Shown here one piece after another: positions 5,793 to 42,081 of a stretch of DNA of 64,000 bases. The notes beneath the pieces are model-generated. The model saw nothing but the letters and a program-made list of their open reading frames with translations. It did no database searches and had not been told where the DNA came from. The translations under genes were made by a program, and so were the position numbers. Numbering within the stretch: position 1 is the first letter of the stretch; the number at the start of each line of letters is the position of its first letter. The stretch is from an uncultured Planctomycetia bacterium (GTDB lineage: Bacteria > Omnitrophota > Gorgyraeia > 2-02-FULL-51-18): NCBI GenBank assembly GCA_964373505.1, contig CAYJVC010000001.1, positions 41,630 through 105,629 of the forward strand, in the 5' to 3' direction.

Positions 5793-6546
5793 CCTCGTTG
5801 CCTCTTCCAGCGCCGTTTTGGCGGCCGATGACCCAAGGGTAGGTTCTTCGAACGAAGAAGCGGGAAGCGGGATCGAAGCGATCGGCTTGCGTAAGGTTTA
5901 CTCGGACGGCGAGCGCGAACTTCAAATATTCAACAATTTGTCTCTTAAGATCCGCAAAGGCGAAGGCGTGGCGATCCTGGGCCCCTCGGGGTCCGGCAAG
6001 ACGACGTTCTTGAATCTCCTTTCAGGCCTGGACGAGCCGGAATCAGGGCAGGTACTATTGAACGGCGTTTCGATCCACGAGCTCAAGGCCACGGAAAAGG
6101 CGCGTTTTATCAACGGGAATGTCGGTTTCATTTTCCAGTTTTATCATCTACTCCCGGAATTCACGGCGCTTGAGAATGTGATGCTCCCCATGCAGATCAG
6201 CAAGCGGCCGGCCCTGCTTCCCGGGGCACGGAAGCGGGCCAAGGAGCTTTTGGACCGCGTGGGATTGGTGGAGCGCATGAAGCATTTCCCGAGCGAGTTG
6301 TCGGGCGGTGAGCAGCAGCGCGTCGCGATCGCGCGAGCGCTCATCCACGAGCCGCCATTTTTATTCTGCGATGAGCCGACCGGAAACCTTGATATTCAGA
6401 AAGGGCTTGAGATCGCGGAGCTTTTGAAGCGTTTGTTCGCCGAAGAGCGCAGGACCGTATTGATAGTGACGCACGACGAGAGAATTGCTAAAATGACGGA
6501 TCGCGTCTGGAATATCGTGGAGCAGCGCTGGGAGAAGAATTCATGA
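5785..6546 (+). CDS. lolD: Lipoprotein-releasing system ATP-binding protein LolD
   Basis: Walker [10 protein letters not shown], signature [15 protein letters not shown], Walker [13 protein letters not shown]. Confidence 0.85.
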
Positions 6547-7421
6547 GCCTTAAGATATTTTTAAATGACCGATTGGTGGACAAAGAGGACGCGAAGGTGA
6601 GCGTGTTCGACCACGGTCTTTTGTACGGCGACGGTGTGTTCGAGGGCATTCGCTCCTACAACGGCCTCGTGTTCAAGCTGGACGAGCATCTGGACCGACT
6701 GTTCGAATCCGCGCACACACTGATATTGGAGATCCCGATGACGAAGTCCGAGCTTGAGAAAGCGATCATTCGCACCTTAAAAGCCAATCGTTTGAAGGAC
6801 GCGTACATACGGCTCGTCGTGACGCGCGGCGTGGGAGACCTAGGGCTTGACCCAAGAAAATGCCGCCGCTCGACACTTTTCATCATTGCGGACAAGATCG
6901 CGCTGTACCCGAAGGAATATTATGAAAAGGGACTCGAGATCGCCACGGTGCCGACCGTACGTAACCACCCGGAGGCGTTGAATCCGCAGCTCAAAACATT
7001 GAATTACCTGAACAATATTTTGGCGAAGATCGAGGCGACGAGCGCCGGCGTGGATGAAGCAATCCTGCTGAACAGCCAGGGCTATGTCACCGAGTGCACG
7101 GGCGAGAATATATTTTATGTGAAGGGCCGGTCGATTATCACGCCGCCGCCCTATGTCGGGATCTTGAAGGGGATCACGCGCAGCGTTGTCATGCGCCTCG
7201 CCCGGCAGCTCGGGTTCAACGTGAAGGAAGATGTGTTCACGCGGCATGAGCTTTATACGGCGGACGAGGTTTTCCTCACCGGCACGGCGGCCGAGATCGT
7301 GCCTGTCGTCCAGATCGACAATCGCCGGATCGGGAACGGGAAGCCGGGCAAAACAACAGGGATTCTCACAAAGGAATTCAGAAAGCTGACGCCCAAAGAA
7401 GGAGTGAAGTACCGGGTATGA
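6543..7421 (+). CDS. ilvE: Branched-chain amino acid aminotransferase (class IV PLP fold)
   Basis: 292 aa. DHGLLYGDGVFEGIRSYNG, ...EAILLN..G.V.E....N.F.V motifs of class IV aminotransferases. Confidence 0.75.
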   Translation: MSLKIFLNDRLVDKEDAKVSVFDHGLLYGDGVFEGIRSYNGLVFKLDEHLDRLFESAHTLILEIPMTKSELEKAIIRTLKANRLKDAYIRLVVTRGVGDLGLDPRKCRRSTLFIIADKIALYPKEYYEKGLEIATVPTVRNHPEALNPQLKTLNYLNNILAKIEATSAGVDEAILLNSQGYVTECTGENIFYVKGRSIITPPPYVGILKGITRSVVMRLARQLGFNVKEDVFTRHELYTADEVFLTGTAAEIVPVVQIDNRRIGNGKPGKTTGILTKEFRKLTPKEGVKYRV

Positions 7422-7945
7422 GCTGCGACGAATGCGGAAAAAATAAGGCGACCGTTCATCTCACCGAGATTATCAACGATCAGATCACGAAGCTGAACCT
7501 CTGTGAGACCTGCGCGAAGGAGAAAGGTTCGGACGTGGAACAGCATTTCGGAATCGGAGACCTTTTGGCCGCGCTCTCCGACACGCACACAGCCTCGGCG
7601 ACCGCGGAAGCGCCGGCGATGAAAGGCCGATGCGCGCAGTGCGGGCTGACGTATGATGATTTTAAGAAAATCGGCCGCCTCGGCTGCAGTGACTGCTACA
7701 ACGCTTTCAAACCGAGCCTTGCGCCGCTTCTTAAGAAAATTCACGGATCCAATCAGCATTTGGGCAAGTCCCTTAGCCCGCAGGCGCTCAGTGAACTCAA
7801 GGTTTCTTCCAAGCATCACGATGAGCTTGAGCTCGTGAAGCAGGAGCTTCAAAAGGCGGTGAAGAATGAGGAGTTTGAGGAGGCGGCCGCGCTCCGCGAC
7901 AAGATCAAGTTTCTGGAAAAGAAGATAAAAGAGGGCAAGGCATGA
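7418..7945 (+). CDS. mcsA: McsA-like protein (CxxC zinc-finger pairs + UVR domain), activator of protein-arginine kinase
   Basis: CDECG, CETC, CAQCG, CSDC motifs then UVR motif EEFEEAAALRDKIKFLEKK. Directly upstream of mcsB. Confidence 0.7.
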   Translation: MSCDECGKNKATVHLTEIINDQITKLNLCETCAKEKGSDVEQHFGIGDLLAALSDTHTASATAEAPAMKGRCAQCGLTYDDFKKIGRLGCSDCYNAFKPSLAPLLKKIHGSNQHLGKSLSPQALSELKVSSKHHDELELVKQELQKAVKNEEFEEAAALRDKIKFLEKKIKEGKA

Positions 7946-8058
7946 CCCCATCCCCTCCTTTTTTATTTAGAGAATTGATGAATCCGCCCGCGGCGGGTTC
8001 ATGCGCCGTTTCCCGGATGATGAGTATTGAAGCGGCGCAAAAGGAGGGGATGGGGTGA
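7942..8058 (+). repeat. Structured intergenic element copy E2: arms CCCCATCCCCTCCTTTT / AAAAGGAGGGGATGGGG, bridges mcsA stop (ATGA) and mcsB GTG start (GTGA)
   Basis: 17-bp perfect inverted repeat (7946-7962 vs 8039-8055). Inner hairpins GCGCCG..CGGCGC, ATGAA..TTCAT. An element-spanning 38-codon ORF runs from ATG 7942 to TGA 8056. Confidence 0.8.
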
Positions 8059-9113
8059 GCGTCAAAGTGGACTCCTTATTGAAGCAGACCTGCGAGTGGT
8101 TGAGGGGCACCGGGCCCAATTCCGAGATCGTCCTGAGCTCCCGCGTGCGGTTGGCAAGGAATCTCGAGAAGGCATCGTTTCCCCATTGGGCCACGAAAAA
8201 GCAGGAGAAGGAAACACTGGAGCTTCTGGATGCGGCGCTGCGGCACGTGGACCTCATGAAAGGGAGCTTGTTCGTCCGCATGACGGAGATCGATGACGTG
8301 GACAAGCAGTTCCTCTTGGAAAGGCATTTGGTGAGCCGTGAGCACATGATGCACGCGGAATCCAAGGCGGTCGTGATAGGTGATAAGGAAGTGATCAGCA
8401 TCATGATCAATGAAGAGGACCATCTGAGGATCCAGGTGATCCAGTCCGGGTTTAACCTGCAGGAATGTTGGCGCATCGCCAACCGCCTCGACGACGGGCT
8501 TTTAAAAAGAGTGAAGTTCGCGTTCCATCCGGAATGGGGTTATTTGACGACATGCCCGACCAACACGGGAACGGGCCTTCGGGCGTCTGTGATGCTGCAC
8601 CTGCCGGCGCTCGTGATGACCAAACAGATCTCGCGCGTGGTCCAGGCGATTTCGAAACTCGGCATGACGGCGCGCGGCCTTTACGGGGAGGGCACGGAGG
8701 CCGAAGGAAATTTCTTCCAGATATCCAACCAGGTCACGATGGGATCGCCTGAGGAGGACACGATCGATAACTTGGAGCGCATTATCCGCCAGGTGATCGG
8801 GCATGAGGAAAACGCGCGCAAGACCCTGATGAAACAGAATCGCGAGGTGCTTCAGGACAAGATCTGCCGCGCGAACGGCACTTTGAAAGCCGCGCACATT
8901 ATCAGCACCAAAGAGATGATGGGTCTGCTCTCTATGGTGAGACTTGGCGTGGACATGGGGGTGATCGCCGACATCGACCGCCGGGCTGTCAACGAGCTTT
9001 TTATTTTGACGCAACCGGCGCATTTGCAAAAGATCGAGGGGAAAATGCTCAGCTCCACGCAGCGCGACGTTAAAAGAGCAAATTTGATCCGTCGGCGTCT
9101 TGAGGGACGGTAG
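8055..9113 (+). CDS. mcsB: Protein arginine kinase McsB (ATP:guanido phosphotransferase)
   Basis: 352 aa. N-term ...GPNSEIVLSSRVRLARNLEKASFP, phosphagen-kinase catalytic CPTNTGTGLRASVMLHLPAL. Confidence 0.85.
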   Translation: MSVKVDSLLKQTCEWLRGTGPNSEIVLSSRVRLARNLEKASFPHWATKKQEKETLELLDAALRHVDLMKGSLFVRMTEIDDVDKQFLLERHLVSREHMMHAESKAVVIGDKEVISIMINEEDHLRIQVIQSGFNLQECWRIANRLDDGLLKRVKFAFHPEWGYLTTCPTNTGTGLRASVMLHLPALVMTKQISRVVQAISKLGMTARGLYGEGTEAEGNFFQISNQVTMGSPEEDTIDNLERIIRQVIGHEENARKTLMKQNREVLQDKICRANGTLKAAHIISTKEMMGLLSMVRLGVDMGVIADIDRRAVNELFILTQPAHLQKIEGKMLSSTQRDVKRANLIRRRLEGR

Positions 9114-9139
9114 TCCTCCTTCGCGAAGGCTTCGGAGGA
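9114..9139 (+). other. GC hairpin with alternative foldings immediately after mcsB stop (possible terminator/stabiliser)
   Basis: TCCTCC-TTCGCGAAGG-CTTCGGAGGA. CCTTCGCGAAGG is a perfect palindrome, and CGAAGgCTTCG is an alternative stem sharing CGAAG. Confidence 0.4.
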
Positions 9140-9146
9140 TAAAGTT

Positions 9147-9180
9147 GTTTTGAATTCATTTTTGTAATGTTATGATAAAG
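9147..9180 (+). promoter_or_regulatory. Possible promoter with extended -10 (TGtTATGAT) upstream of clpC
   Basis: AT-rich 60 nt between hairpin and clpC ATG. tgttatgat with weak -35 candidates (tttgaa/ttttga). Confidence 0.25.
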
Positions 9181-9201
9181 AACATCCAGGGGCCTTAAGT
9201 C

Positions 9202-11682
9202 ATGTTCAACAAATTTACGGAACGGGCCAGGAAAGTGATCCTGCTGGCCAAGCAGGAGGCCAAGCGTTTCAATCACGATTACATCGGCACCGAGCACATT
9301 TTGCTCGGGCTTTTACGCGAGGGTGAGGGTGTCGCGGCCGCGGTGCTTCAAAGCCTCGGCATGAATCTCAACAATATCCGGCTCGAAGTGGAAAAATTAG
9401 TACAGTTGGGGCCCGCCACCGTGGTGTCGGGTGACCTGCCTTTCACGCCGAAGGCCAAGAAGGTGATGGAGATCGCAATGGAGGAGGCCCGAAACCTCGG
9501 CCACAATTATATCGGCACTGAGCATTTGTTGCTGGGGCTCATTCGTGAAGGCGAAGGAGTCGCGAGCCAGGTTTTCATGAACATGGGCCTTGACCTTGAA
9601 AAGGTGCGGGAAGAAGTGATCAAGCTTTTGGGTTCCACGACCCCCGGTTCGCAATACGGCCCCGGGCCCGCTCAAGGGCCTACGCCTTCAGGGCCTCCTT
9701 CTTCCTCTAAGACTAAAACACCGGCGCTGGATGCGTTTGGACGCGACCTGACACGGCTTGCGCGCGATGGGAAATTAGATCCTGTGATCGGCCGTGACGA
9801 GGAGATCGACCGCGTGATGCAAACACTCTCGCGCCGCAGGAAAAATAACCCCGTGCTTCTCGGCGAGGCGGGTGTGGGAAAGTCCGCGATCGTCGAGGGC
9901 TTGGCGCAGAAGATCGTGAGCGGCGACGTGCCGGAAATCTTGAAAAATAAACGGCTCATCACTCTGGACCTGGCGCTCATGGTAGCCGGGACGAAGTACC
10001 GCGGGCAGTTCGAGGAACGCATCAAGGCCGTGATGGATGAGATCAAGCGCTCGGAAAATATCATCATGTTCGTGGATGAACTCCACACGCTCGTCGGCGC
10101 GGGCGGCGCGGAAGGCGCGATCGACGCCGCGAATATTCTGAAGCCCGCGCTGGCAAGGGGCGAGATCCAGTGCATCGGCGCGACGACATTCGACGAATAC
10201 CGCAAGTACATTGAAAAGGACACCGCGCTTGAGCGGAGGTTCCAGACGATCATGGTGGATCCGCCGTCGGTCGAGGAGACGATCCTCATCCTGAGAGGGC
10301 TTCGGGACAAGTACGAGGCGCACCACAAGGTAAAGATTACGGATATCGCGCTTGAGGCGGCCGCCAAGTTTTCGGACCGCTACATTGCTGGCCGATTTCT
10401 GCCGGACAAAGCGATCGACGTGATCGATGAGGCCGGCGCTTACGCGCGTCTTTCGACCCACACCACGCCTCAGGATGTAAAGGAGCTTGAGAAAAAACTC
10501 GAGCTCTTAAGGCGGGAGAAAGAAGACACGATCAAGGAGCAGGATTTCGAGAAAGCCGCGGCCTTGAGGGACCAGGAGCGCGAGATACGGCGGCAGCTGG
10601 ACAAGACCAAAAAGGAATGGATGGAGTCGCGATCGAAGATAGAGCTTGAGATAGGCGAGGAGGATATCGCTCGGGTCATCGCGAAGATCACAGGAATTCC
10701 GATCTCAAGGCTCGAGGAAAAAGAAACCTCGCGCTTGTTGCGTATGGAAGAGGAGATCAAGAAGCATGTGATCGGCCAGGATGAGGCGATCGCCGCGATT
10801 TCCCACGCGGTCCGCCGTTCGCGCGCGGGGCTCAAAGATCCCCGCCGGCCGATCGGTTCGTTCATTTTCCTGGGGCCCACCGGCGTCGGCAAGACGCTTT
10901 TGGCCAAGGCGCTCGCAGAGTTCATGTTCAACGATGAGAGCGCGCTCATCTCGTTCGATATGTCGGAATACATGGAGAAGTTCAACGTCTCGCGGCTCGT
11001 GGGCGCGCCGCCCGGCTACGTGGGCTACGAAGAGGGCGGCCAGTTGACCGAGAAAGTAAGGCGTCGTCCGTACTGCATTGTGCTTTTGGATGAGATCGAA
11101 AAAGCGCACCCGGACGTGTTCAACATGCTGCTTCAGGTGCTGGAAGAAGGTCGCTTGACGGACTCGCTGGGCCGAAAGGTCGATTTCCGGAACACGGTGC
11201 TGATCATGACGTCCAACATTGGCGCGGAACTTCTGAAGAAACAGGGCAGCATCGGTTTTAAAGCGCAAGAGCAGTCCACCGACTACAAGGAAATGAAAAC
11301 GCGTCTCTTGGAAGAGACCAAGAAGGTCTTCAAACCTGAGTTCATCAACCGCGTGGACGATATCATCGTCTTTCAGAAACTCACCAAAGAGGACCTCGAC
11401 AAGATCATCGATATTGAGGTTGAAAATTTGAGAAAGAGACTCGGTGAGCGGGGCATTGAGATCCAACTCGATCAGAAGGCCAAAGATTTTCTGATCGCCC
11501 GAGGTTTTGACCTGATGTACGGAGCGCGCCCGCTGAAGCGCACGATCCAGCGTTACTTGGAGGATCCGCTCGCCGAAGAGATCATTTCAAAGAAGATCCG
11601 CACGAATGAAATGGTTCAGGTCACGGTCAAAGACGACGACCACCTCGTTTTTGAGCAGAGCGCGAAGATTTCAACATCCTAA
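9202..11682 (+). CDS. clpC: ATP-dependent Clp protease ATP-binding subunit ClpC (two Clp_N repeats, two AAA+ modules, UVR linker)
   Basis: 826 aa. Clp_N repeats, Walker A GEAGVGKS and GPTGVGKT, middle-domain UVR motif. Confidence 0.9.
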
Positions 11683-23210: not shown

Positions 23211-24374
23211 ATGGAAGTTTATCTAGATTATAACTCGACCACTCCGCTGGACCCGATGGTCCTCGAGGCCATGAAGCCGTTCCTTGTGAGCGAATTCGGC
23301 AACGCCTCGAGCTTTCATAAAAAAGGTCAGGCGAGCCGTCACGCCGTGGAGTCCGCCCGGGAGACGATCGCGGGCGCGTTGGGCGCCGAGCCCGGCGATG
23401 TCATTTTCACCTCGGGGGGCACCGAGTCGGACAATCTGGCCGTGAAGGGAGCGATGGAAAGCTTTGCCGGTAAAAGAAATCACCTCATTGTATCATCCAT
23501 CGAACATCAGGCGGTTCTGCACCCGGCGCAGTTTCTCGAGAAAAAAGGCGCGCGCGTGACCTATCTGCCGGTGGACCACGAAGGCCGGGTGGATCTGGAC
23601 GCTCTGAAAGCGAGCGTTTCGCCAGACACGGCGCTTGTGAGCCTCATGCATGTGAACAACGAAACGGGATCGATCCAGCCCATCCGTGAAGCGGCGCGCC
23701 TGGCGCACGAGAAAGGCGCCTGGTTCCATACCGACGCCGTGCAATCTTTCGGAAAGATCGGGATAGACATCGACGAAACAGGAGCGGACCTTGTCTCAAT
23801 GTCCGCGCATAAGATCTGCGGCCCCAAGGGCGCGGGTGCGCTTTATGTTAAAAAAGGGATCAAACTGAAGGCTTTGACGCATGGGGGACATCAGGAGAAG
23901 AATTTAAGACCAGGCACGGAAAATGTCACGGCGATCGTGGGGTTTGGGAAAGCTTGTGAGCTGGCTCTCAAATGCGGCACCCAGGAGTCTGCGAGAGTGT
24001 TGAGTCTGCGCGAGAAACTTCATCACGGTCTTTTGAACGCCGTTCCTGATCTGGAGCTGAACGGCCATCCGGTGCAGCGGATCTACAACACACTGAACGC
24101 TTCGTTCCCAGGTCTAGACGGGGAAACGCTGCTGATGAATTTAGATCTCAAGGGGATCTGTGTTTCCACGGGCTCCGCCTGCACGGCCGGGTCTATCGAG
24201 CCATCCCACGTGCTTTTGGCGATGGGGTTATCCCAGAAGCGGGCGCGGGCTGCGATCCGCTTCTCCCTCGGCCGGTTTACGCAGACTCAGGAGATCGATT
24301 ATGCGCTCGCCGAGATCCCGCCTGTCATTCATAGGTTAAGGAGCGCTTCCACGGAAAGGGTCAAAGGGAAATGA
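23211..24374 (+). CDS. iscS: Cysteine desulfurase (NifS/IscS family, class V PLP)
   Basis: LDYNSTTPLDP, SAHKICGPKGAGALYV (PLP-Lys), active-site loop STGSACTAGSIEPSHVL. Confidence 0.85.
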   Translation: MEVYLDYNSTTPLDPMVLEAMKPFLVSEFGNASSFHKKGQASRHAVESARETIAGALGAEPGDVIFTSGGTESDNLAVKGAMESFAGKRNHLIVSSIEHQAVLHPAQFLEKKGARVTYLPVDHEGRVDLDALKASVSPDTALVSLMHVNNETGSIQPIREAARLAHEKGAWFHTDAVQSFGKIGIDIDETGADLVSMSAHKICGPKGAGALYVKKGIKLKALTHGGHQEKNLRPGTENVTAIVGFGKACELALKCGTQESARVLSLREKLHHGLLNAVPDLELNGHPVQRIYNTLNASFPGLDGETLLMNLDLKGICVSTGSACTAGSIEPSHVLLAMGLSQKRARAAIRFSLGRFTQTQEIDYALAEIPPVIHRLRSASTERVKGK

Positions 24375-25156
24375 TCGTAGACACCCATTGTCATCTTTTT
24401 TTTGACGCGTTCGACGCTGACCGTGAAGCCGTGATCAATCGCGCGAAAGAATTCGGCGTAAAATACATGGTGAACGTGGGCACGGACCCTGAGGCGAACC
24501 AAAAAGCCCTGGGCCTGTCAAAAAAATACGCGGGCCTTTTCTGGACCGCTGGCATGCATCCGCACTCTGCGCACCTGGCGACGGAAGAGGTCTTGGAGGA
24601 GCTGGGCCAATTTATAAAACGTGAAAAACCCTCGGCTGTCGGCGAGATAGGCCTCGATTACTTTAAGAGCGAAGCTCCACCTAAAACCCAGAAAAAAGTC
24701 TTTGCGCGCATGCTCCATATCGCCATGGAAAACAAACTGCCCGTTATCGTTCACTCGAGGAATGCTTTTAAAGACACCCTAGATATTGTCATGGCCGAGG
24801 CAAACGGTGGCCTGAAAGGCGTCATGCACTGCTTTTCCTATGACTTGCAGGCATTGGAAGAGCTCCTGAGGATCGGATTTTTAGTTTCCTTCACCTGCAA
24901 CGTCACTTTTAAGAATGCGGGCGCGCTCCTTGAAGTGGCAAAGAATGCGCCTTTAGACCACATCATGCTTGAAACGGATTCACCGTATCTGGCACCCCAG
25001 ATCTACCGGGGGAAACGAAACGAGCCCTCTTGTCTCGCGCACCTGGCGCAGATCCTGTCGGAGGCTAGGAATATTTCTCTGGAAGAACTGGAAGCGGCTA
25101 CGACAAAAACCGCCGTCAATTTTTTCAAGTTGCCTGCTATCCCGCCGTCCGCATGA
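24371..25156 (+). CDS. tatD: TatD-family metal-dependent hydrolase/DNase
   Basis: IVDTHCHL, GEIGLDY, HSR, LETDSPYL motifs. Confidence 0.85.
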   Translation: MIVDTHCHLFFDAFDADREAVINRAKEFGVKYMVNVGTDPEANQKALGLSKKYAGLFWTAGMHPHSAHLATEEVLEELGQFIKREKPSAVGEIGLDYFKSEAPPKTQKKVFARMLHIAMENKLPVIVHSRNAFKDTLDIVMAEANGGLKGVMHCFSYDLQALEELLRIGFLVSFTCNVTFKNAGALLEVAKNAPLDHIMLETDSPYLAPQIYRGKRNEPSCLAHLAQILSEARNISLEELEAATTKTAVNFFKLPAIPPSA

Positions 25157-26199
25157 GATCCTTTACGGCGATGATCCGGTCTAACCGGGCGGCCTTTGGC
25201 ATGCTTGCGTTCACGCTGATCGTTTATTTATTTCTTTTCGCCGTGGGCCGCGCCGCCGAAAAGAGCGTTGAAACGCCGGAGACGCAAATCCAGGAGAAGC
25301 TCTCGAAAGAGGAGCTGAAACAAAAGGAGGAAGCATTTAAGGAGAATATCCGGCGGTATCCCGCACTTGCCGGCTTCGTAACGCTCGCATTTCTTCTCGT
25401 TTTATTCGCGGGGATCGGACTTGACGCTTATTTTGCGATCCGGAAGTTCCGGGGGTTACCGGGCCTTAAAGGCCAGGCGACGGAAACGACCGTCGCGTGG
25501 GGGCTTGGGGAAGTGGCACATCTTTTCATTTTTTTGTTCTTCATGGAAGCGCTGATCGTGTTCGTCGAGCTTGTCACGGCTTCGTTCGTGGATCTCCTGC
25601 ACTGGAATAAGGATGCGATCCTCATGGGCAATAGTTTCCTACGAAATACGGGCGCCGCGCTTTGGGTGATCGCGCGTGTCGCCGGACATTTTCGGGCACC
25701 GCTTGCCTCGATAGGGCTCACGACGCGCTCATTCTGGAAAAATGTTAAAATAGGGATGGTGGGGTACCTCGCCGTGATCCCTCCGCTTTTGGGCACCCTG
25801 GCGGCTATGGCGTGGGTTGCGCAGCTTTTTTCGTACGAACCCGAGCCGCAGACGATCGTACAGATCTATTTGAAGAGTTCTTCGGACAATTACCTTCTTT
25901 ATTTTACCCTGTTCGTGGCGCTTGTCGGGCCCGTGATCGAGGAGATCTTTTTTAGAGGCTTTACCTACACGGCTTTCCGGCACCGCTGGGGTGTGAAGTG
26001 GGCGCTTGTCGGGTCGTCAGGGCTTTTTGCGCTGATGCACCTGGATCTCATCACTTTTTTTCCGATCTTTGTGCTGGGTATTTTCCTGGCATATCTGTAT
26101 GAAAAAACGGGCTCGCTCGTACCGTCGATGGTCGTGCATGTGACGCACAATTTTTTGATGGTGAGTGCAACGCTGTTCTTCAAAGGAGTCGCCGCGTGA
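25153..26199 (+). CDS. CPBP (CAAX/Abi) family intramembrane metalloprotease
   Basis: Multi-TM with EEIFFRG and FALMHL motifs typical of Abi/CPBP. Confidence 0.7.
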   Translation: MRSFTAMIRSNRAAFGMLAFTLIVYLFLFAVGRAAEKSVETPETQIQEKLSKEELKQKEEAFKENIRRYPALAGFVTLAFLLVLFAGIGLDAYFAIRKFRGLPGLKGQATETTVAWGLGEVAHLFIFLFFMEALIVFVELVTASFVDLLHWNKDAILMGNSFLRNTGAALWVIARVAGHFRAPLASIGLTTRSFWKNVKIGMVGYLAVIPPLLGTLAAMAWVAQLFSYEPEPQTIVQIYLKSSSDNYLLYFTLFVALVGPVIEEIFFRGFTYTAFRHRWGVKWALVGSSGLFALMHLDLITFFPIFVLGIFLAYLYEKTGSLVPSMVVHVTHNFLMVSATLFFKGVAA

Positions 26200-27113
26200 C
26201 CCTCACGCTTAAAGAGACGGGGGAGTTCGGGTTTATCGACCGCATCCGAAAAATGCTTCCGTGCGGGACAGGCGTGGAGCGGGGCATCGGGGACGATGCC
26301 GCCGTCCTCAGAATAGGAAATAAAAAGGTACTTTTTACGACGGACATGATCCTCGAGGACAGGCATTTTGTTTTGGGTGAAGCATCCGGGTTCGAGATTG
26401 GCTGGAAAGCGCTCAGCGTTAATTTAAGCGATATCGCAGCAATGGGAGGCGTGCCGACGCATGCAGTGGTGGCGCTCGGAATGCCGGCAAGGTTGCCGCT
26501 CCGGTTCGCCGTTGATATCACCAAGGGGATCTGTGCGCTTGCCCGCCGTTTTCGCGTGAACGTTGTGGGCGGGGACACCAACGCCTCGGAAAAGCTTATC
26601 GTGTCGGTGGCGCTTCTCGGTGAAGCCCCGCACGGCCTTGTCACGACGCGATCCGGTGCGAGGCCCGGCGATATCGTTTTTGTGAGCGGCTTTTTGGGGG
26701 GCTCGGCCGCCTCACGGAAGCACCTTCGCTTTATTCCTAGGTTACGCGAGGCTGGTTTTTTAACCGCTCATTTTAATGTGCACGCGATGATGGATATTTC
26801 GGACGGCCTCGCATCGGACATCCACCGGCTCTGCGAACAAAGCGGGACCGGCGTCTGTTTGTCCGAAGAAGCAATACCTAGACAGGCGACAGTAACCCTC
26901 AAACAAGCGTTAACGGACGGTGAGGACTTTGAGCTTCTCTTTACGCTTTCTGCCAAAGACGCTGCGAGACTTGTCCTTTTCAGACCAAAGCGGTCCTTGA
27001 CGCCTTTTCATGAGGTGGGAAAGATCATGCCGAAGCCCTATGGGATCCGCCTCGTCACCGCCGACGGCGCTTCGCGGCCGCTGAAACCCGCAGGTTTCGA
27101 TCATTACCGATGA
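26196..27113 (+). CDS. thiL: Thiamine-monophosphate kinase
   Basis: AIR-synthase-related fold. GEFGFIDRIR, GDDAAVL, TTDMILEDRHF motifs. Confidence 0.85.
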   Translation: MTLTLKETGEFGFIDRIRKMLPCGTGVERGIGDDAAVLRIGNKKVLFTTDMILEDRHFVLGEASGFEIGWKALSVNLSDIAAMGGVPTHAVVALGMPARLPLRFAVDITKGICALARRFRVNVVGGDTNASEKLIVSVALLGEAPHGLVTTRSGARPGDIVFVSGFLGGSAASRKHLRFIPRLREAGFLTAHFNVHAMMDISDGLASDIHRLCEQSGTGVCLSEEAIPRQATVTLKQALTDGEDFELLFTLSAKDAARLVLFRPKRSLTPFHEVGKIMPKPYGIRLVTADGASRPLKPAGFDHYR

Positions 27114-37342: not shown

Positions 37343-37863
37343 TGCTCGAGGATCGCAACATCGTGCTGGTCGGCTTTATGGGGACGGGGAAGACGAGCGT
37401 CGGGAAAGCTCTCGCGAAGAAGCTGAAACGGTGTCTCGTGGACGTGGACCGCAGGATCGAAGAAAAGGAAAAAAGAATGATCCGCGAGATCTTCGAAAAG
37501 GAAGGTGAACCTTACTTCCGGAAATTGGAAGCGGAGGTCATTCGCGAAGTCTGTCGCCAAAGAGGCGTTGTGATCACGACCGGCGGCGGCGCCGTGCTCG
37601 ATCCGGCCAATGTCGCCGCGCTGAGAGAAAGCGGGATCCTCGTGTGTCTGTCTGCGCGACCGGAAACTATTTTTAAACGCGTGAAGAATTCCGAAAAACG
37701 CCCACTGCTTCCGACCGGCGACAAGCTTGCCCAGATCAAAAAGCTTCTGGACGCGCGCGAACCTTTTTATGAAATGGCGGATCACCGGATCCAGACGGAC
37801 GAGCAGTCACCCGAAGAAACGGCCGCGTGCATCATCGGGTTTTTGGGGAGCGCAGGCACGTGA
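37342..37863 (+). CDS. aroK: Shikimate kinase
   Basis: P-loop GFMGTGKTSVG, shikimate-binding ITTGGG. Confidence 0.9.
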   Translation: MLEDRNIVLVGFMGTGKTSVGKALAKKLKRCLVDVDRRIEEKEKRMIREIFEKEGEPYFRKLEAEVIREVCRQRGVVITTGGGAVLDPANVAALRESGILVCLSARPETIFKRVKNSEKRPLLPTGDKLAQIKKLLDAREPFYEMADHRIQTDEQSPEETAACIIGFLGSAGT

Positions 37864-38960
37864 AGGCCGACGAGGAGCTTCGGGAGACCATTGCGCTGAG
37901 TCTGGCTGATAGTTTGGGCCCGGTGGCATTCAAAGCGCTTATTGGAAAATACAAAAAACCTTCACGGATCTTAAAAGCCCGCGGATCGGATCTTCGTAAA
38001 GTGACGGGACTCAAGGATGCGGCCGTGAAAGAGATAAAAGATGCGAAACTGCTCGAAAAGGCCGACCGGGAGATCGAGAAGGCGCTCAAGCAGGATGTGC
38101 ATATAGTCACCTGTTTTGACGAGGCTTATCCGGAAGAGCTGAAAGCAATCTATGACCCGCCGATCGCGTTGTATGTGAAAGGGCGCCTGCCCGACGCGCG
38201 CCTTCCAAAAGTGGCCGTCGTCGGCTCAAGGGTATGTTCGCTTTACGGCAGGGGCATGGCGCACGGCATTTCGGAGACGTTGGCCCATAACGGCGTCGTG
38301 GTGGTGAGCGGCCTGGCGCTCGGGATAGACAGCGCCGCGCATGAGGGAGCTTTGTCGGGGGACGGGATCACGATCGCGGTATTGGGCGGCGGACTTTCGA
38401 AGCTTTATCCACCGGACAATAAGCAATTGGCGGCAAAGATCGTCGAAAAAGGCGCCGTCATTTCCGAATACCCTATGGAAATGGAGCCGCTCAAGCAATA
38501 TTTTCCCAGGAGGAACCGCATCATCAGCGGCCTGTCGTGCGGCGTGCTCGTCGTGGAGGCCAAAGAAAAAAGCGGCGCGTTGATCACCGCGAATCTCGCG
38601 TTGGAAGAAGGGCGCGATGTTTTTGCGGTGCCGGGCAACGCCGATTCGGCCCGTTCGCAGGGCACCAATTCGCTTTTGAAACAAGGCGCAAAGCTTGTCA
38701 CTTCGGCCGCGGACATTTTGGAGGAGCTCGAACTGTCGGCTCGCCGACTGCCGCTGAAAAAGAAGGCGCCGGCGCCCTCGCATCCGGTCAGCGCGGATGA
38801 AGAAACAATCTTGTCCATGGTGGACGGCGACGCGCGGCATGTGGACGACTTGATCGAAGGCATCGGCTGGCCTTCGGCGCGGGTCATCGCCGCGCTTTCG
38901 CTTTTGGAGATCAAGGGGTTGGTTCGGCAACTACCCGGAAAGCATTTTGTTACGGCATGA
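37860..38960 (+). CDS. dprA: DNA-processing protein DprA (Smf), Rossmann-like DNA-binding domain + C-terminal wHTH
   Basis: SGLALGIDSAAHEGAL core. Probable GTG start overlapping aroK stop (GTGA). Stop overlaps next ATG (ATGA). Confidence 0.85.
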   Translation: MKADEELRETIALSLADSLGPVAFKALIGKYKKPSRILKARGSDLRKVTGLKDAAVKEIKDAKLLEKADREIEKALKQDVHIVTCFDEAYPEELKAIYDPPIALYVKGRLPDARLPKVAVVGSRVCSLYGRGMAHGISETLAHNGVVVVSGLALGIDSAAHEGALSGDGITIAVLGGGLSKLYPPDNKQLAAKIVEKGAVISEYPMEMEPLKQYFPRRNRIISGLSCGVLVVEAKEKSGALITANLALEEGRDVFAVPGNADSARSQGTNSLLKQGAKLVTSAADILEELELSARRLPLKKKAPAPSHPVSADEETILSMVDGDARHVDDLIEGIGWPSARVIAALSLLEIKGLVRQLPGKHFVTA

Positions 38961-39157
38961 TCACGATACGGCTTAACGGAGAGAAGAAGACGCTGGAAAG
39001 GACGCTCACGCTTGCCGAGCTTCTTTCGGAAATGGGTGTGCCGAAAGAAAAGGTGGTCGTCGAGCGAAACCTCGAGATCATACCGAGGGATCGCCTCGAA
39101 GCCGTTTGCTTGGCGGAAGCGGACGAGGTGGAGATCGTTCATTTCGTCGGCGGCGGT
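38957..39157 (+). other. thiS: ThiS-type sulfur-carrier (beta-grasp, ubiquitin-like) domain forming the N-terminus of the topA ORF
   Basis: MITIRLNGEKKTL...VVVERNLEIIPRDRLEAVCLAEADEVEIVHFVGGG: canonical ThiS length and C-terminal GG(G). No stop codon follows. Confidence 0.85.
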
Positions 39158-41200
39158 GCGGGGGAAAAAGTACTCGTCATCGTGGAATCGCCCGCCAAGT
39201 GCAAGACCATTCACAAATACCTGGGCGACAGTTTTGAAGTGGCCGCCTCGATGGGCCATGTCGTGGACCTGCCTAGAAGCAGGATGGGTATTGACATCGC
39301 GCATAATTTCCAGCCGCAGTACATCGTCGCAAAGGACCGTAAGAAAACCCTGGCGGAATTGAAGAGGAAGGCAAAAGGCAAGAGCGCGATCTACCTGGCC
39401 TGCGACCCTGACCGCGAGGGGGAGGCCATCAGCTGGCATCTAAAGAACCAGCTTGGGAAAGGCAAGAAAGTCGTGCGCGTCGTATTCAATGAGATAACCA
39501 AAGACGCGGTGCAGGAGGCTTTCAAGCACCCTTCCGGCATTGACATGAATCTCGTGGGCGCGCAGCAGGCGCGCCGGGTGTTGGACCGCATTGTCGGCTA
39601 TTCTCTAAGCCCGCTTTTGTGGCAAAAGGTCGGCCGCGGCCTTTCGGCGGGCCGCGTGCAATCCGTGGCGCTTCGTCTCGTCGTTGACCAGGAGCGTAAG
39701 ATCGGGTCATTCGTGGCCGAGGAGTACTGGACGGTTGAGGCCGGGCTTAAGAAGCAGAAAGGCGACACGAAGCCGTTTGTTGCGAAGCTTGAAAAGATCG
39801 GGGACAAAAAGGCCCAGATCCAGGACGGTAAAACCGCCTCTTGGGTCGCCGAGAAAGCCGCAAAGCTTCCGTTCGTCGTCCGGGAAGTCAAAAAGCAAAA
39901 GAAAAAAAGGAACCCCACTCCTCCGTTCACGACCAGCAAACTCCAGCAGGCCGCTTACAATCTTTTAAAGTTCCCAGCCTCCAAGACGATGCGGATCGCG
40001 CAGACGCTTTACGAAGGGGTTGAGTTGGGGAGAGAGGGAAGCGTGGGCCTGATTACCTACATGAGGACCGACTCGGTAAGGTTGTCGGATGTGGCCATTG
40101 AAGAGACGCGCGGGCTTATTGTGAAGCAATATGGGAAGAGCTACCTGCCGCCCCGGCCTAATATTTACAAGTCCAAGAAAGGCGCGCAGCAGGCGCACGA
40201 AGCGATCCGTCCGACCTCGGTGTTCCGCCAGCCGAAGGAGATTGAAAAATACCTGACGCCGGACCAGAATAAATTGTATGCGATCATCTGGCGGCAGGCA
40301 GTTGCCAGCCAAATGACGCCGGCCGTCATCGCGCAAGAGACGGCGGACATCGCCGCAGGCGAGTACTTGTTTCGCGCGACGGGCAGCCGCGTGGAATTTC
40401 CCGGGTGCCTGGCAGTCCAGGGGAAGACGGAGAGCGAGGAGAATGTTCTGCCGAGCCTTTTGCCTGACGAAAAACTCACGCTTTTAGGTTTGAAACACGA
40501 GCAGCATTTTACAAAACCGCCTGCCCGATTTACGGACGCGTCGCTCGTGAAAGCACTTGAAGAAAATGGGATCGGTCGGCCTTCCACCTACGCGCCGACC
40601 CTCCAGACCTTGACCGAGCGGGATTACGTCCGACGCGACGGCGGGAGCCTCGTACCTACGGAGCTTGGCATGCTGGTGACGGACCTTCTTGTGAAGCATT
40701 TTTCAAAAATTCTAGACTTTGAGTTCACGGCCAAAATGGAGGAGGAACTTGACGAAGTGGAAGAGGGCCAGACGGATTGGGTGAGCGTGGTGAGGGAATT
40801 CTACGGCGTGTTCAACGGCCAAATGGACCTTGCGAAGGTCCAAATGGAAACCGTGAAGCGTGTGGCCGAACCCACGGATGAAATCTGCGACCACTGCGGC
40901 AAACCCATGGTGATCAAGTGGGGACGCCGCGGGCGGTTCATGAGTTGTTCGAGCTGGCCGACCTGCCGGAACGCAAAATCCATTTCCACGGATGTGGTAT
41001 GCCCTCAGTGTGGCAAGGGAAAGCTTGTGGCGCGCCGCGCTCGCTCGGGGCGCGGCCGGCCTTTTTTTGGATGCACGGCTTACCCGACGTGCACATTCAT
41101 CACAAACCGCTTGCCTAAAGACGGCGCGCTGCAGACGGCACCCAAAAACCCCGCGGAAGCTGAGGCGGAGCCTTCCGAGACGGAGGGAGAAGGTCAGTGA
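38957..41200 (+). CDS. topA: DNA topoisomerase I with in-frame N-terminal ThiS-like domain (ThiS-TopA fusion ORF)
   Basis: After ThiS GGG and a 4-aa AGEK linker comes the Toprim start KVLVIVESPAKCKTI. Continues through full TopA core and C-terminal Zn-ribbon repeats (CDHCG..C..C, CPQCG..C..C). Confidence 0.9.
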   Translation: MITIRLNGEKKTLERTLTLAELLSEMGVPKEKVVVERNLEIIPRDRLEAVCLAEADEVEIVHFVGGGAGEKVLVIVESPAKCKTIHKYLGDSFEVAASMGHVVDLPRSRMGIDIAHNFQPQYIVAKDRKKTLAELKRKAKGKSAIYLACDPDREGEAISWHLKNQLGKGKKVVRVVFNEITKDAVQEAFKHPSGIDMNLVGAQQARRVLDRIVGYSLSPLLWQKVGRGLSAGRVQSVALRLVVDQERKIGSFVAEEYWTVEAGLKKQKGDTKPFVAKLEKIGDKKAQIQDGKTASWVAEKAAKLPFVVREVKKQKKKRNPTPPFTTSKLQQAAYNLLKFPASKTMRIAQTLYEGVELGREGSVGLITYMRTDSVRLSDVAIEETRGLIVKQYGKSYLPPRPNIYKSKKGAQQAHEAIRPTSVFRQPKEIEKYLTPDQNKLYAIIWRQAVASQMTPAVIAQETADIAAGEYLFRATGSRVEFPGCLAVQGKTESEENVLPSLLPDEKLTLLGLKHEQHFTKPPARFTDASLVKALEENGIGRPSTYAPTLQTLTERDYVRRDGGSLVPTELGMLVTDLLVKHFSKILDFEFTAKMEEELDEVEEGQTDWVSVVREFYGVFNGQMDLAKVQMETVKRVAEPTDEICDHCGKPMVIKWGRRGRFMSCSSWPTCRNAKSISTDVVCPQCGKGKLVARRARSGRGRPFFGCTAYPTCTFITNRLPKDGALQTAPKNPAEAEAEPSETEGEGQ

Positions 41201-42081
41201 TGAGCAGTTCCGTTAAAAAATTTTTGACCTACCTCAGTGTTGAAAGGAATTATTCCGAACACACGGTAACCGGTTATTCGCACGATCTGCGCGAGTTTTA
41301 CGGCTTCTTGGGCAAGACCGCGCTCGAGGATGCGGACGTGCTTTTATTAAGAAAGTACTTGGTGATCCTCAGGGACAAGAGCCTTTCGAAAAAGACCGTC
41401 GCGCGGCACATGGCAGCGCTCAGGAGTTACTTTAAATTTCTCATGAGAGAAGGATTGTTAAAAAAAAATCCCATGGGCCTTTTAAGGATCCCGAAACTCG
41501 CCAAGCGCCTGCCGGTGGTGCTGGATGAGAAAGAGGTGGATGCGCTTTTAGGCGCGCCTGAGGATGACCTTGCGGGCCGTCGTGACAGAGCGATCTTCGA
41601 AACGCTTTATTCGGCGGGAATGCGCGTATCCGAGCTTGTGCAGCTCGATGTGGACGGCGTCGATTTTATCGGGGGGGTGTGCCGCGTGCTTGGAAAGGGC
41701 CGCAAAGAGCGGCTTTGCCCCATCGGCGAACAGGCACTCACGAGCATTCGCCGCTACTTGGAGCTGAGGGATCGCCAGGAAAGAAGCAAGTCCCCCGCTT
41801 TGTTCCTGAATCATTCGTCGAATAGATCCGGCTCGCGGCTCACGTCCCGCAGTGTGTGCCGGCTCCTGGAAAGATACATTCAGCGTACCTGCCGCAAGGA
41901 AGGGGTGTCGCCGCACACGCTTCGTCATTCATTCGCGACACACCTTTTGAACCGCGGAGCGGACCTGCGGTCCGTGCAGGAGCTTTTGGGACATGAAAAT
42001 CTGTCAACGACCCAGATCTACACGCACGTTTCGACACAACGTCTGAAAGAGGCTTATGACAAAGCGCATCCGAGAGCGTGA
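41197..42081 (+). CDS. xerC: Tyrosine site-specific recombinase XerC/XerD family
   Basis: N-terminal SAM-like core-binding domain. Catalytic R..HxxR..Y (HTLRHSFATHLL, ...TQIYTHV). dprA-topA-xerC synteny. Confidence 0.8.
   Translation: MMSSSVKKFLTYLSVERNYSEHTVTGYSHDLREFYGFLGKTALEDADVLLLRKYLVILRDKSLSKKTVARHMAALRSYFKFLMREGLLKKNPMGLLRIPKLAKRLPVVLDEKEVDALLGAPEDDLAGRRDRAIFETLYSAGMRVSELVQLDVDGVDFIGGVCRVLGKGRKERLCPIGEQALTSIRRYLELRDRQERSKSPALFLNHSSNRSGSRLTSRSVCRLLERYIQRTCRKEGVSPHTLRHSFATHLLNRGADLRSVQELLGHENLSTTQIYTHVSTQRLKEAYDKAHPRA

What the first reader, a model, noticed from the sequence alone, without database searches (positions are those of the whole stretch)
38957..39200. Intact ThiS sulfur-carrier domain fused in-frame to the N-terminus of DNA topoisomerase I (dprA-thiS::topA)
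The topA ORF begins with a 67-residue sequence that is an unmistakable ThiS: MITIRLNGEKKTL...VVVERNLEIIPRDRLEAVCLAEADEVEIVHFVGGG. Length, beta-grasp pattern and the C-terminal Gly-Gly(-Gly), normally the thiocarboxylated end, are all canonical. Instead of a stop codon, GGG is followed by AGEK and then directly the Toprim start KVLVIVESPAKCKTI of TopA. No in-frame ATG/GTG/TTG could give a separate TopA start. A single indel cannot separate the two, because both are in the same frame. The thiS ATG overlaps the dprA stop (ATGA), and the dprA-topA-xerC synteny is otherwise conventional. Either this organism makes a Ub-like-domain-tagged topoisomerase, or ThiS is released by a JAMM/MPN+-type peptidase cleaving after GG, as for eukaryotic Ub fusions and some bacterial CysO/QbsE precursors. 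I am not aware of a described ThiS-TopA fusion. thiL is nearby (26196) but no thiF/thiG/thiO is in the window.
Basis: seen in the sequence. Interest (0 to 1): 0.85.

Follow-up and report, generated by a model that had tools for sequence, protein, structure and literature searches.

The report
ThiS sulfur carrier fused to TopA
In this Omnitrophota bacterium and about a hundred relatives, the essential enzyme DNA topoisomerase I is made with a complete ubiquitin-like sulfur-carrier protein (ThiS) joined to its front end, which probably has to be cut off after an unchanging Gly-Gly, much as ubiquitin fusion proteins are in eukaryotes.

Summary
One 747-codon ORF (38957-41200, +) encodes a full-length canonical ThiS (aa 1-67, ending FVGGG), a 4-residue linker (AGEK) and a complete, catalytically intact TopA. 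It is not an assembly error: identical DNA occurs in two independent assemblies. 99 of the 120 closest TopA homologues (55-80% identical; every hit that carries an organism name is Candidatus Omnitrophica/Omnitrophota) have the same architecture.

The origin is clear. Sister lineages carry a separate thiS gene between dprA and topA, so the fusion arose by loss of the thiS stop. Fused and split states are interleaved on the TopA tree.

- The terminal GG is invariant in 99/99 fusions, while the linker is hypervariable (4-35 aa).
- The residue after GGG is Ala or Ser in 93/99.
- ThiS diverges at the same rate whether fused or free.
- All 21 free-standing thiS genes of this group carry 1-5 extra residues after GGG (A, AA, AF and others).

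I therefore favour a precursor model: ThiS is released by a Gly-Gly-specific peptidase, leaving TopA with a normal N-terminus. No peptidase, thiF or thiG could be located, so this is inference (about 0.5). The main rival is a permanent ThiS domain on TopA. I found no publication describing this. It is a new variant of known ThiS/MoaD fusions and capped carrier precursors.

The parts
37827..38960 (+). dprA (DNA_processg_A + DprA winged helix); its TGA stop overlaps the ATG of the fusion ORF (ATGA), implying translational coupling
38957..41200 (+). single ORF encoding ThiS-linker-TopA (747 aa + stop)
   Evidence: exact protein found on two independent assemblies
38957..39157 (+). ThiS domain, aa 1-67, beta-grasp fold, ending EIVHFVGGG (GGG = 39149-39157)
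   Evidence: TIGR01683 at 72 bits, full length; PDB 1TYG_B aligned to its very C-terminus; AF2 and Foldseek match to ThiS structures; GG invariant in 99/99 fused homologues
39158..39169 (+). linker Ala68-Gly-Glu-Lys71; the proposed cleavage site is between Gly67 and Ala68 (39157|39158); predicted flexible
   Evidence: AF2 pLDDT <50 for residues 64-69; linker 4-35 aa and hypervariable in homologues, first residue after GGG is Ala 75/99 or Ser 18/99
39170..41200 (+). DNA topoisomerase I: Toprim (aa 72-180; Glu77, Asp150/Asp152), Topoisom_bac (195-612; catalytic Tyr368 in LITYMRTDS), two C4 zinc ribbons (about 642-715), acidic C-terminal tail
   Evidence: invariant columns; Foldseek match to E. 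coli, S. mutans and M. tuberculosis TopA
41197..42081 (+). xerC-type tyrosine recombinase; its start overlaps the topA stop

Best explanation
The gene encodes a precursor polyprotein. Translation starts at the ATG coupled to the dprA stop and produces ThiS-AGEK-TopA. A Gly-Gly-specific endopeptidase, not yet identified, then cuts after Gly67. This releases (a) a 67-residue ThiS with the free Gly-Gly carboxylate that ThiF-type adenylation and thiocarboxylation chemically require, and (b) TopA beginning at Ala68 (AGEKVLVIVESPAK...), the same N-terminal length as ordinary TopA (E. coli MGKALVIVESPAK, from my own knowledge). The fusion arose when the stop codon of a thiS gene lying between dprA and topA was lost. 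It was tolerated, and recurred or reverted several times, because this lineage already trims residues from the C-terminus of ThiS. Shown here: the fused ORF, its origin, its distribution and the conservation pattern. Inferred: the cleavage itself, the peptidase and the downstream sulfur acceptor.
For: (1) The ThiS part is canonical ThiS by sequence and fold.
(2) The terminal GG is invariant in 99/99 fused homologues, preceded by G in 97/99. The linker right after it is hypervariable in length (4-35 aa) and sequence.
(3) The first residue after GGG is Ala 75/99 or Ser 18/99, against 26% Ala in the rest of the linker (binomial p about 1e-24). This looks like a cleavage-site preference.
(4) At matched TopA divergence, ThiS identity is the same in fused and unfused pairs (for example 0.50 vs 0.51 and 0.74 vs 0.72), with the same invariant residues, so constraint was not relaxed after fusion.
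(5) Unfused sister clades have a separate thiS between dprA and topA (L005, L088, L089, L090). All 21 free ThiS proteins of this group carry 1-5 residues after GGG (A x7, AA x6, AF x3, AV, YE, C, R, ARLAR), so even the free form needs trimming to expose GG.
(6) Fused and split states are interleaved on the TopA tree, as expected if the two are functionally equivalent.
(7) 73/99 linkers contain no Met, Val or Leu, so TopA cannot be started separately.
(8) AF2 predicts residues 64-69 (VGGGAG) as a flexible, exposed tether.
(9) Precedent: the capped sulfur carriers QbsE (GG-CF) and CxnE (GG + 10 aa) are described as exposed by the JAMM peptidases QbsD and CxnF (PMC5925218). Iyer et al. 2006 proposed JAB cleavage for ThiS/MoaD fused to other proteins (PMC1779556).
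Against: No candidate peptidase was found. There is no JAMM motif in the window or in 16 related Omnitrophota loci, and Iyer et al. note that JAB proteins are absent from thiamine operons. I could not establish whether the same genomes encode thiF, thiG or thi4, or a second thiS. A 2026 preprint reports thiG in only 38 of 176 complete Omnitrophota genomes. At least one MAG, assigned to Omnitrophota only because its Thi4 is 95% identical to that of Omnitrophica bin.255, has a different carrier: MoaD/SAMP-like, with a free GG end, next to an E1 enzyme and Thi4 (L093). The thiazole pathway may therefore not depend on this ThiS. Some Omnitrophota have no thiS at the dprA-topA locus (L010-L012, P0088). 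The caps and fusions could instead mean that a free C-terminus is no longer needed.
Confidence: 0.5

Rival explanations
1. Permanent domain. ThiS is not cleaved and has become an N-terminal ubiquitin-like module (or, in the split lineages, a small subunit) of TopA. It might mediate protein-protein contacts or regulate the enzyme, and it no longer carries sulfur.
For: thiS-topA adjacency or fusion is conserved over deep divergence in the phylum, the classic sign of a functional link. Caps on free ThiS and fusions both block the C-terminus, consistent with a free carboxylate being unnecessary. TopA tolerates N-terminal extensions of 10-85 aa in relatives. Another carrier with a free GG end sits beside E1 and Thi4 in one apparent Omnitrophota MAG. 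No peptidase was found.
Against: A tail with no function should decay, yet GGG is invariant in all 99 fused and all 21 free forms while the next residues vary. The domain still scores 62-80 bits on the thiS equivalog model in every clade (cut-off 37.45) and is 50-55% identical to free ThiS proteins of other organisms. Linker length of 4-35 aa and low complexity argue against a fixed docking geometry. P0088 lost the domain inside the fused clade.
Confidence: 0.3
2. Neutral read-through relic. The stop codon was lost, ThiS function is gone or redundant, and the domain simply rides along on an essential protein.
For: thiS is absent from the locus in some Omnitrophota. thiG is uncommon in the phylum.
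Against: The fusion persists down to 55% TopA identity in at least three clades with no relaxation of ThiS constraint. The GG motif and the residue after it are conserved.
Confidence: 0.1
3. Two proteins made by separate translation (internal initiation for TopA, or recoding or termination after GGG) rather than by proteolysis.
For: An in-frame GTG exists at Val76. In split relatives the two genes are tightly coupled, from a 4-nt overlap to a 2-nt gap in three of four loci.
Against: The GTG lies inside Toprim strand 1, next to the catalytic Glu77. 73/99 linkers have no Met, Val or Leu codon at all. The hypervariable linkers leave no room for a conserved recoding signal. Internal initiation would not in any case free the ThiS C-terminus.
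Confidence: 0.03
4. Sequencing, assembly or gene-calling artefact that hides a stop codon.
For: The source is a metagenome-assembled genome.
Against: The gene DNA is identical in two independent read sets. 99 distinct homologues from NCBI, JGI, ENA and Logan share the architecture. GC and GC3 are uniform across the junction.
Confidence: 0.01

Closest known systems
ThiS-ThiG and MoaD-MoaE natural fusions (Iyer, Burroughs & Aravind 2006, PMC1779556)
   Same: A sulfur-carrier beta-grasp domain with conserved Gly-Gly is joined through a variable linker to the N-terminus of the next protein, so the carboxylate needed for activation is blocked. I retrieved 77 ThiS-ThiG loci with the same logic: EIVHFVGGG-DH-variable linker-ThiG, with Asp after GGG in 77/77.
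   Different: In those cases the partner is the carrier's own sulfur-transfer enzyme. Here it is an unrelated essential DNA enzyme. Neither that survey nor Burroughs et al. 2007 lists a topoisomerase partner.
Capped sulfur-carrier precursors trimmed by JAMM peptidases (QbsE/QbsD in thioquinolobactin, CxnE/CxnF in chuangxinmycin)
   Same: Extra residues follow the Gly-Gly and must be removed before adenylation (PMC5925218). Free ThiS in the sister Omnitrophota clades has 1-5 such residues.
   Different: In those systems the JAMM gene lies in the same cluster. Here no peptidase gene is nearby. The 'cap' in the window is a 680-residue enzyme, and the carrier is a canonical thiamine-type ThiS rather than a secondary-metabolite carrier.
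Eukaryotic ubiquitin fusion genes (ubiquitin joined to ribosomal proteins eL40 and eS31; polyubiquitin with a capping residue); from my own knowledge
   Same: A ubiquitin-fold protein ending in Gly-Gly is synthesised as an N-terminal fusion to an unrelated housekeeping protein, or with a short C-terminal cap, and is released by Gly-Gly-specific proteases.
   Different: Processing is demonstrated in eukaryotes and only inferred here. ThiS is a sulfur carrier, not a protein modifier. The two arose independently.
Archaeal SAMP1-MoaE linear fusion cleaved by HvJAMM1
   Same: A prokaryotic ubiquitin-like carrier is released from a C-terminal fusion partner by a metalloprotease.
   Different: It is archaeal, the partner is the cognate synthase subunit, and the JAMM enzyme is known.

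Membership tests
ThiS sulfur carrier (TIGR01683 / PF02597) | Full-length sequence match above the curated cut-off | tested here: met
   TIGR01683 at 72 bits (cut-off 37.45), model positions 1-64/64; PF02597 at 47.6 bits. Fused domains of other clades and free neighbours score 62-80 bits.
ThiS sulfur carrier (TIGR01683 / PF02597) | Beta-grasp fold like solved ThiS structures | tested here: met
   AF2 domain model has pLDDT 91. The best Foldseek hits are ThiS structures 3CWI, 1TYG_B, 1F0Z and 1ZUD_2 (TM 0.73-0.85).
ThiS sulfur carrier (TIGR01683 / PF02597) | Gly-Gly at the end of the domain | tested here: met
   FVGGG at aa 63-67 aligns with the very C-terminus of B. subtilis ThiS. It is invariant in 99/99 fusions.
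ThiS sulfur carrier (TIGR01683 / PF02597) | Free C-terminal carboxylate on the last Gly in the gene product | tested here: not met
   GGG is followed in frame by 680 residues. Free homologues in sister clades also carry 1-5 extra residues. This could be met only after proteolysis.
ThiS sulfur carrier (TIGR01683 / PF02597) | Cognate ThiF-type E1 and a thiazole synthase (ThiG or Thi4) in the same genome | not testable with these tools
   None was recognised in the 64-kb window and whole genomes could not be read. Matching contig lengths among Thi4 hits found nothing.
Bacterial DNA topoisomerase I (TIGR01051) | Toprim + Topoisom_bac + zinc ribbons with the catalytic Glu, DxD and Tyr | tested here: met
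   TIGR01051 at 776 bits (cut-off 456). Glu77, Asp150/Asp152, Tyr368 and the Cys4 motifs are invariant. Structural match to 4RUL, 6OZW and 1ECL.
Ubiquitin-like precursors processed after Gly-Gly | Ubiquitin-like domain whose Gly-Gly is followed by a cap or an unrelated protein | tested here: met
Ubiquitin-like precursors processed after Gly-Gly | A dedicated Gly-Gly-specific peptidase (JAMM/MPN+ or other) in the genome | tested here: inconclusive
   No JAMM motif in the window or 16 related loci. Only about 64 kb plus flanks could be examined. An Rce1-like protease sits next to thiL, but nothing links it to ThiS.
Ubiquitin-like precursors processed after Gly-Gly | Cleavage demonstrated | not testable with these tools
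   Needs protein-level data.
ThiS/MoaD fused to its own partner enzyme (ThiS-ThiG type) | The fusion partner is the carrier's sulfur-transfer partner | tested here: not met
   The partner is TopA.

The most novel reading that the evidence does not exclude
A large Omnitrophota lineage runs a ubiquitin-style precursor system. Canonical ThiS is always made with its Gly-Gly blocked, either by 1-5 residues or by the entire essential TopA enzyme. It is then freed by a still-unknown Gly-Gly-specific hydrolase. This would be a bacterial counterpart of the eukaryotic ubiquitin-ribosomal-protein fusions, and it would tie production of a sulfur carrier 1:1 to production of a topoisomerase.
Probability: 0.45. 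Interest if true: 0.8.

Novelty: new variant of a known kind. Interest (0 to 1): 0.62.

Why it matters
If ThiS is cut from TopA, bacteria outside the known secondary-metabolite clusters have a housekeeping 'deubiquitinase-like' activity that matures a primary-metabolism sulfur carrier, and the enzyme responsible is unknown and could be found. The same unknown step would explain how the widespread ThiS-ThiG fusions can work at all. It would also be an independent bacterial example of the eukaryotic habit of making ubiquitin as a fusion to an unrelated essential protein, which bears on how ubiquitin precursor processing evolved. If ThiS is not cut, TopA in this phylum carries a ubiquitin-like domain of unknown role, which would be a new kind of accessory domain for type IA topoisomerases. 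Either way, current annotation ('type I DNA topoisomerase') hides what may be the only canonical thiS in these genomes, so thiamine-pathway reconstructions for Omnitrophota may miscount it.

Tried and rejected
Only five Omnitrophota loci were usable, and the scan could not be repeated.
(2) I tried to test for thiF, thiG, thi4, a second thiS or a JAMM peptidase in the same genome. No tool reads whole genomes.
- I recovered 131 aa of an Omnitrophica Thi4 from a preprint supplement and searched with it, hoping to match contig lengths with fusion-bearing contigs (1,594,128; 510,541; 464,360 and others). None matched.
- Its nearest hit led to a Thi4 cluster with a MoaD/SAMP-like carrier, not ThiS.
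(3) The supplementary KO tables of Seymour et al. 2023 are stored truncated and could not be interpreted per genome.
(4) A metagenome scan with the Rce1-like protease next to thiL found no relatives, so conservation of that adjacency is untested.
(5) P0289, the only uncapped near relative of the free ThiS, lies in an unrelated context with neither thi genes nor topA.
(6) Literature searches for 'ThiS' are swamped by the word 'this'. Targeted combinations found no ThiS-TopA report.
(7) Simple ORF calling around the ThiS-ThiG loci failed because of their 66-68% GC, so their neighbours were not examined for a peptidase.
(8) Rejected: artefact (identical DNA in independent assemblies), recent horizontal insertion (GC 56-57% and GC3 70-71% in both parts) and an internal TopA start.
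Full report
**What is in the sequence**

The window has a single ORF at 38957-41200 (+), 747 codons. Its ATG overlaps the dprA stop (ATGA) and its stop overlaps the xerC start.
- Residues 4-67 match Pfam ThiS (PF02597) and, over the full model length, the NCBIfam thiS equivalog TIGR01683 (72 bits, cut-off 37.45).
- Residues 73-676 match TIGR01051 topA_bact (776 bits), with Toprim, Topoisom_bac and two zinc ribbons.
- The domain ends EIVHFVGGG. That is identical to the C-terminus of B. subtilis ThiS in the ThiG-ThiS crystal structure 1TYG and aligns to its last residue.
- An AlphaFold2 model of the domain (pLDDT 91) finds solved ThiS structures as its best matches (3CWI, 1TYG_B, 1F0Z, 1ZUD).
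- The full-length model (pLDDT 85) matches E. coli, S. mutans and M. tuberculosis TopA. No solved TopA among those matches aligns over the N-terminal ThiS part, though I did not inspect the individual alignments.
- Catalytic Glu77, Asp150/Asp152 and Tyr368 are present and invariant among homologues.
- GGG is followed by Ala-Gly-Glu-Lys and then the first Toprim strand.
- The only in-frame start-like codon nearby is GTG at Val76, inside that strand, so TopA cannot start on its own.

**It is real and widespread**

The gene's DNA is identical in two independently assembled read sets. GC and GC3 do not change across the junction. Of the 120 best TopA homologues, 99 carry ThiS + Toprim + Topoisom_bac + zinc ribbon. 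They are 55-80% identical to the window protein, and every hit that a source names is Candidatus Omnitrophica/Omnitrophota. Public annotation calls them simply 'type I DNA topoisomerase'.

**Origin**

The neighbourhood aroC-aroK-dprA-[thiS::topA]-xerC-kdtA-lpxK is conserved. In unfused relatives the same neighbourhood holds a separate 68-75-codon thiS between dprA and topA:
- L005: 2-nt gap between thiS and topA.
- L088: 4-nt overlap.
- L089: 67-nt gap.
- L090: 1-nt gap.

The fusion is therefore the loss of the thiS stop codon plus a frame adjustment. The Lys/Ala/Pro-rich N-terminal tail of unfused TopA corresponds to the linker.

Other Omnitrophota have dprA directly followed by topA, with no thiS within 5 kb (L010-L012). 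One member of the main fused clade, P0088, has replaced ThiS with a low-complexity tail.

A neighbour-joining tree of the TopA core places the fused sequences in several groups:
- Fused groups: a large clade; a group with P0093, P0095, P0097, P0100 and P0101; a group with P0092, P0094, P0098, P0103, P0110, P0111 and P0117; and P0115 alone.
- Interleaved split sequences: a split clade plus P0104, P0109 and P0120.

So fusion, fission or both happened more than once. The tree is a quick distance tree; the number of events is not settled.

**Conservation pattern**

- The terminal Gly-Gly is invariant in 99/99 fusions, and the preceding residue is Gly in 97.
- The linker that follows ranges from 4 to 35 residues (median 6) and is rich in Ala, Lys, Gly, Ser and Pro. 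Its sequence is otherwise unconserved.
- The first residue after GGG is the exception. It is Ala in 75 and Ser in 18 of 99, against 26% Ala elsewhere in the linker (p about 1e-24).
- 73 of 99 linkers contain no Met, Val or Leu, which excludes a separate TopA start in most genes.
- The three residues before the Toprim strand have the consensus Ala-Lys-Ala, like ordinary TopA N-termini.
- AlphaFold2 gives pLDDT below 50 only for residues 64-69 (VGGGAG) between two confident domains.
- At equal TopA divergence, ThiS identity is the same for fused pairs and for split pairs. The same positions are invariant: Asn7, Gly8, Leu23, Val33, Glu36, Asn38, Asp56, Glu59 and the tail.
- Fused domains from three clades and free neighbours all score 62-80 bits on the thiS equivalog model.

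**The free-standing ThiS proteins are capped**

The four thiS genes read next to topA end GGGA, GGGC, GGGARLAR and GGGR. A search with the L005 protein returned 20 hits. The 18 closest all carry one or two residues after GGG (A, AA, AF, AV, YE). Of the two most distant, one (P0290) ends GGGTA and one (P0289) ends at GGG, and P0289 lies in an unrelated genomic context. Five of the hits share contig lengths with unfused TopA hits, which is consistent with adjacency. Counting L088-L090 plus the 18, all 21 free ThiS proteins of this group are capped. Canonical ThiS ends at the Gly whose carboxylate is adenylated by ThiF and converted to the thiocarboxylate (established biochemistry; restated in PMC1779556). 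A capped ThiS is therefore inactive until it is trimmed.

**Mechanism**

I think the most likely reading is a precursor. This lineage has an activity that cuts after the ThiS Gly-Gly, which makes a one-residue cap and a 680-residue 'cap' equivalent. That would explain the invariant GG, the preference for a small residue after it, the unrelaxed ThiS constraint, the free-form caps and the repeated switching between fused and split states.

There is precedent. QbsE and CxnE have residues after GG that are described as removed by the JAMM peptidases QbsD and CxnF (PMC5925218). Iyer et al. 2006 proposed JAB cleavage wherever ThiS or MoaD is fused to another protein.

The same unsolved problem exists for ThiS-ThiG fusions. 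I retrieved 77 loci with EIVHFVGGG-DH-variable linker-ThiG, again with an invariant residue after GGG.

**What weakens the precursor model**

- I found no peptidase. There is no JAMM motif in the window or in 16 related loci.
- I could not read whole genomes to ask whether thiF, thiG or thi4 are present, or whether this is the only canonical thiS.
- Published surveys say most Omnitrophota encode thiamine biosynthesis (PMC10066038). A 2026 preprint finds thiC, thiE, thiL and iscS nearly universal but thiG in only 38/176 complete genomes.
- Some Omnitrophica use Thi4 clustered with thiS- and thiF-like genes (PMC13325395). When I reached such a cluster (L093), its carrier was a 90-residue MoaD/SAMP1-like protein with a free AGG end beside a MoeB/UbaA-like E1, Thi4 and DUF6775. 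It was not a canonical ThiS.

So the acceptor served by the topA-linked ThiS is unknown, and a permanent, non-cleaved role on TopA cannot be excluded. I put processing at about 0.5, a permanent domain at about 0.3, a neutral relic at about 0.1, and the other explanations below 0.05.

**Comparison and novelty**

Fusions of ThiS or MoaD to their own partner enzymes, and capped carrier precursors, are known kinds. A canonical ThiS fused to an unrelated essential DNA enzyme is not in the two systematic beta-grasp surveys or in anything my literature searches found. The same is true of the conservation of that fusion across a phylum-level lineage and of the systematically capped free ThiS in its sisters. 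The search was limited because 'ThiS' cannot be told apart from the word 'this'. I class it as a new variant of a known kind. The closest functional analogy is the eukaryotic ubiquitin-ribosomal-protein fusions.

Noticed in passing
window 25153-26199 (+), with thiL at 26196-27113 and a cysteine desulfurase at 23211-24374: An Rce1-like/CPBP intramembrane protease (PF02517, 81.6 bits) has its stop overlapping the thiL start. A NifS/IscS-type cysteine desulfurase lies two genes upstream. Rce1-type enzymes trim C-terminal residues, which is suggestive in a lineage whose ThiS carries C-terminal caps, but these genes are tightly packed and the adjacency may mean nothing.
   Followed up: partly
L005 9792-9998, L088 3798-4004, L089 3464-3682, L090 2555-2782; proteins P0271-P0288: Free-standing thiS genes next to topA in unfused Omnitrophota all end GGG plus 1-5 residues (A, AA, AF, AV, YE, C, R, ARLAR) instead of ending at Gly-Gly.
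   Followed up: yes
L093 (GCA_964590995.1, CAZPYY010000023.1) 4685-11609: A sulfur-relay/thiazole cluster: Rrf2, ThiI-like, PALP, HcyBio, NIL/ferredoxin, a 90-aa MoaD/SAMP1-like carrier ending AGG, a MoeB/UbaA-like E1, Thi4 and DUF6775. Thi4 is called as two pieces (210 + 57 aa), possibly a frameshift. The MAG is taken as Omnitrophota only because its Thi4 is 95% identical to that of Omnitrophica bin.255. This is a second carrier system, distinct from the topA-linked ThiS.
   Followed up: partly
L094-L173 (metagenome contigs), the ThiS-ThiG junction in each: 77 ThiS-ThiG fusions have the junction EIVHFVGGG-DH-variable linker-W(T/S)VAG...SRLIVGTGKY, with Asp after GGG in 77/77. L121, L157 and L161 carry tandem repeats of a GGGDHxxAG unit in the linker.
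   Followed up: partly
protein P0103 (fused homologue), linker: The linker contains a degenerate partial duplicate of the Toprim start (SLGIVKSPAKSKTIHRKS followed by LVIVESPAKSKTIH).
   Followed up: no
protein P0088 (ENA/NCBI contig of 7,685 bp; no DNA available): Inside the main fused clade, this TopA has no ThiS. It has instead an N-terminal tail of about 100 low-complexity residues, with dprA directly upstream. It is a natural loss of the domain.
   Followed up: partly
proteins P0096-P0120 (unfused Omnitrophota TopAs), N-termini: These TopAs have Lys/Ala/Pro-rich N-terminal tails, mostly about 10-70 residues and reminiscent of histone H1 or basic DNA-binding tails, before the Toprim strand.
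   Followed up: no
window 1-64000: No Rfam family reaches its gathering score anywhere in the 64 kb on either strand. There is no tRNA and no TPP riboswitch near thiL or the thiS::topA gene.
   Followed up: no
L006/L007 9282-9968: In the P0095 clade a PIG-L family deacetylase gene is inserted between dprA and the fused thiS::topA, so there the fusion ORF is not translationally coupled to dprA.
   Followed up: no
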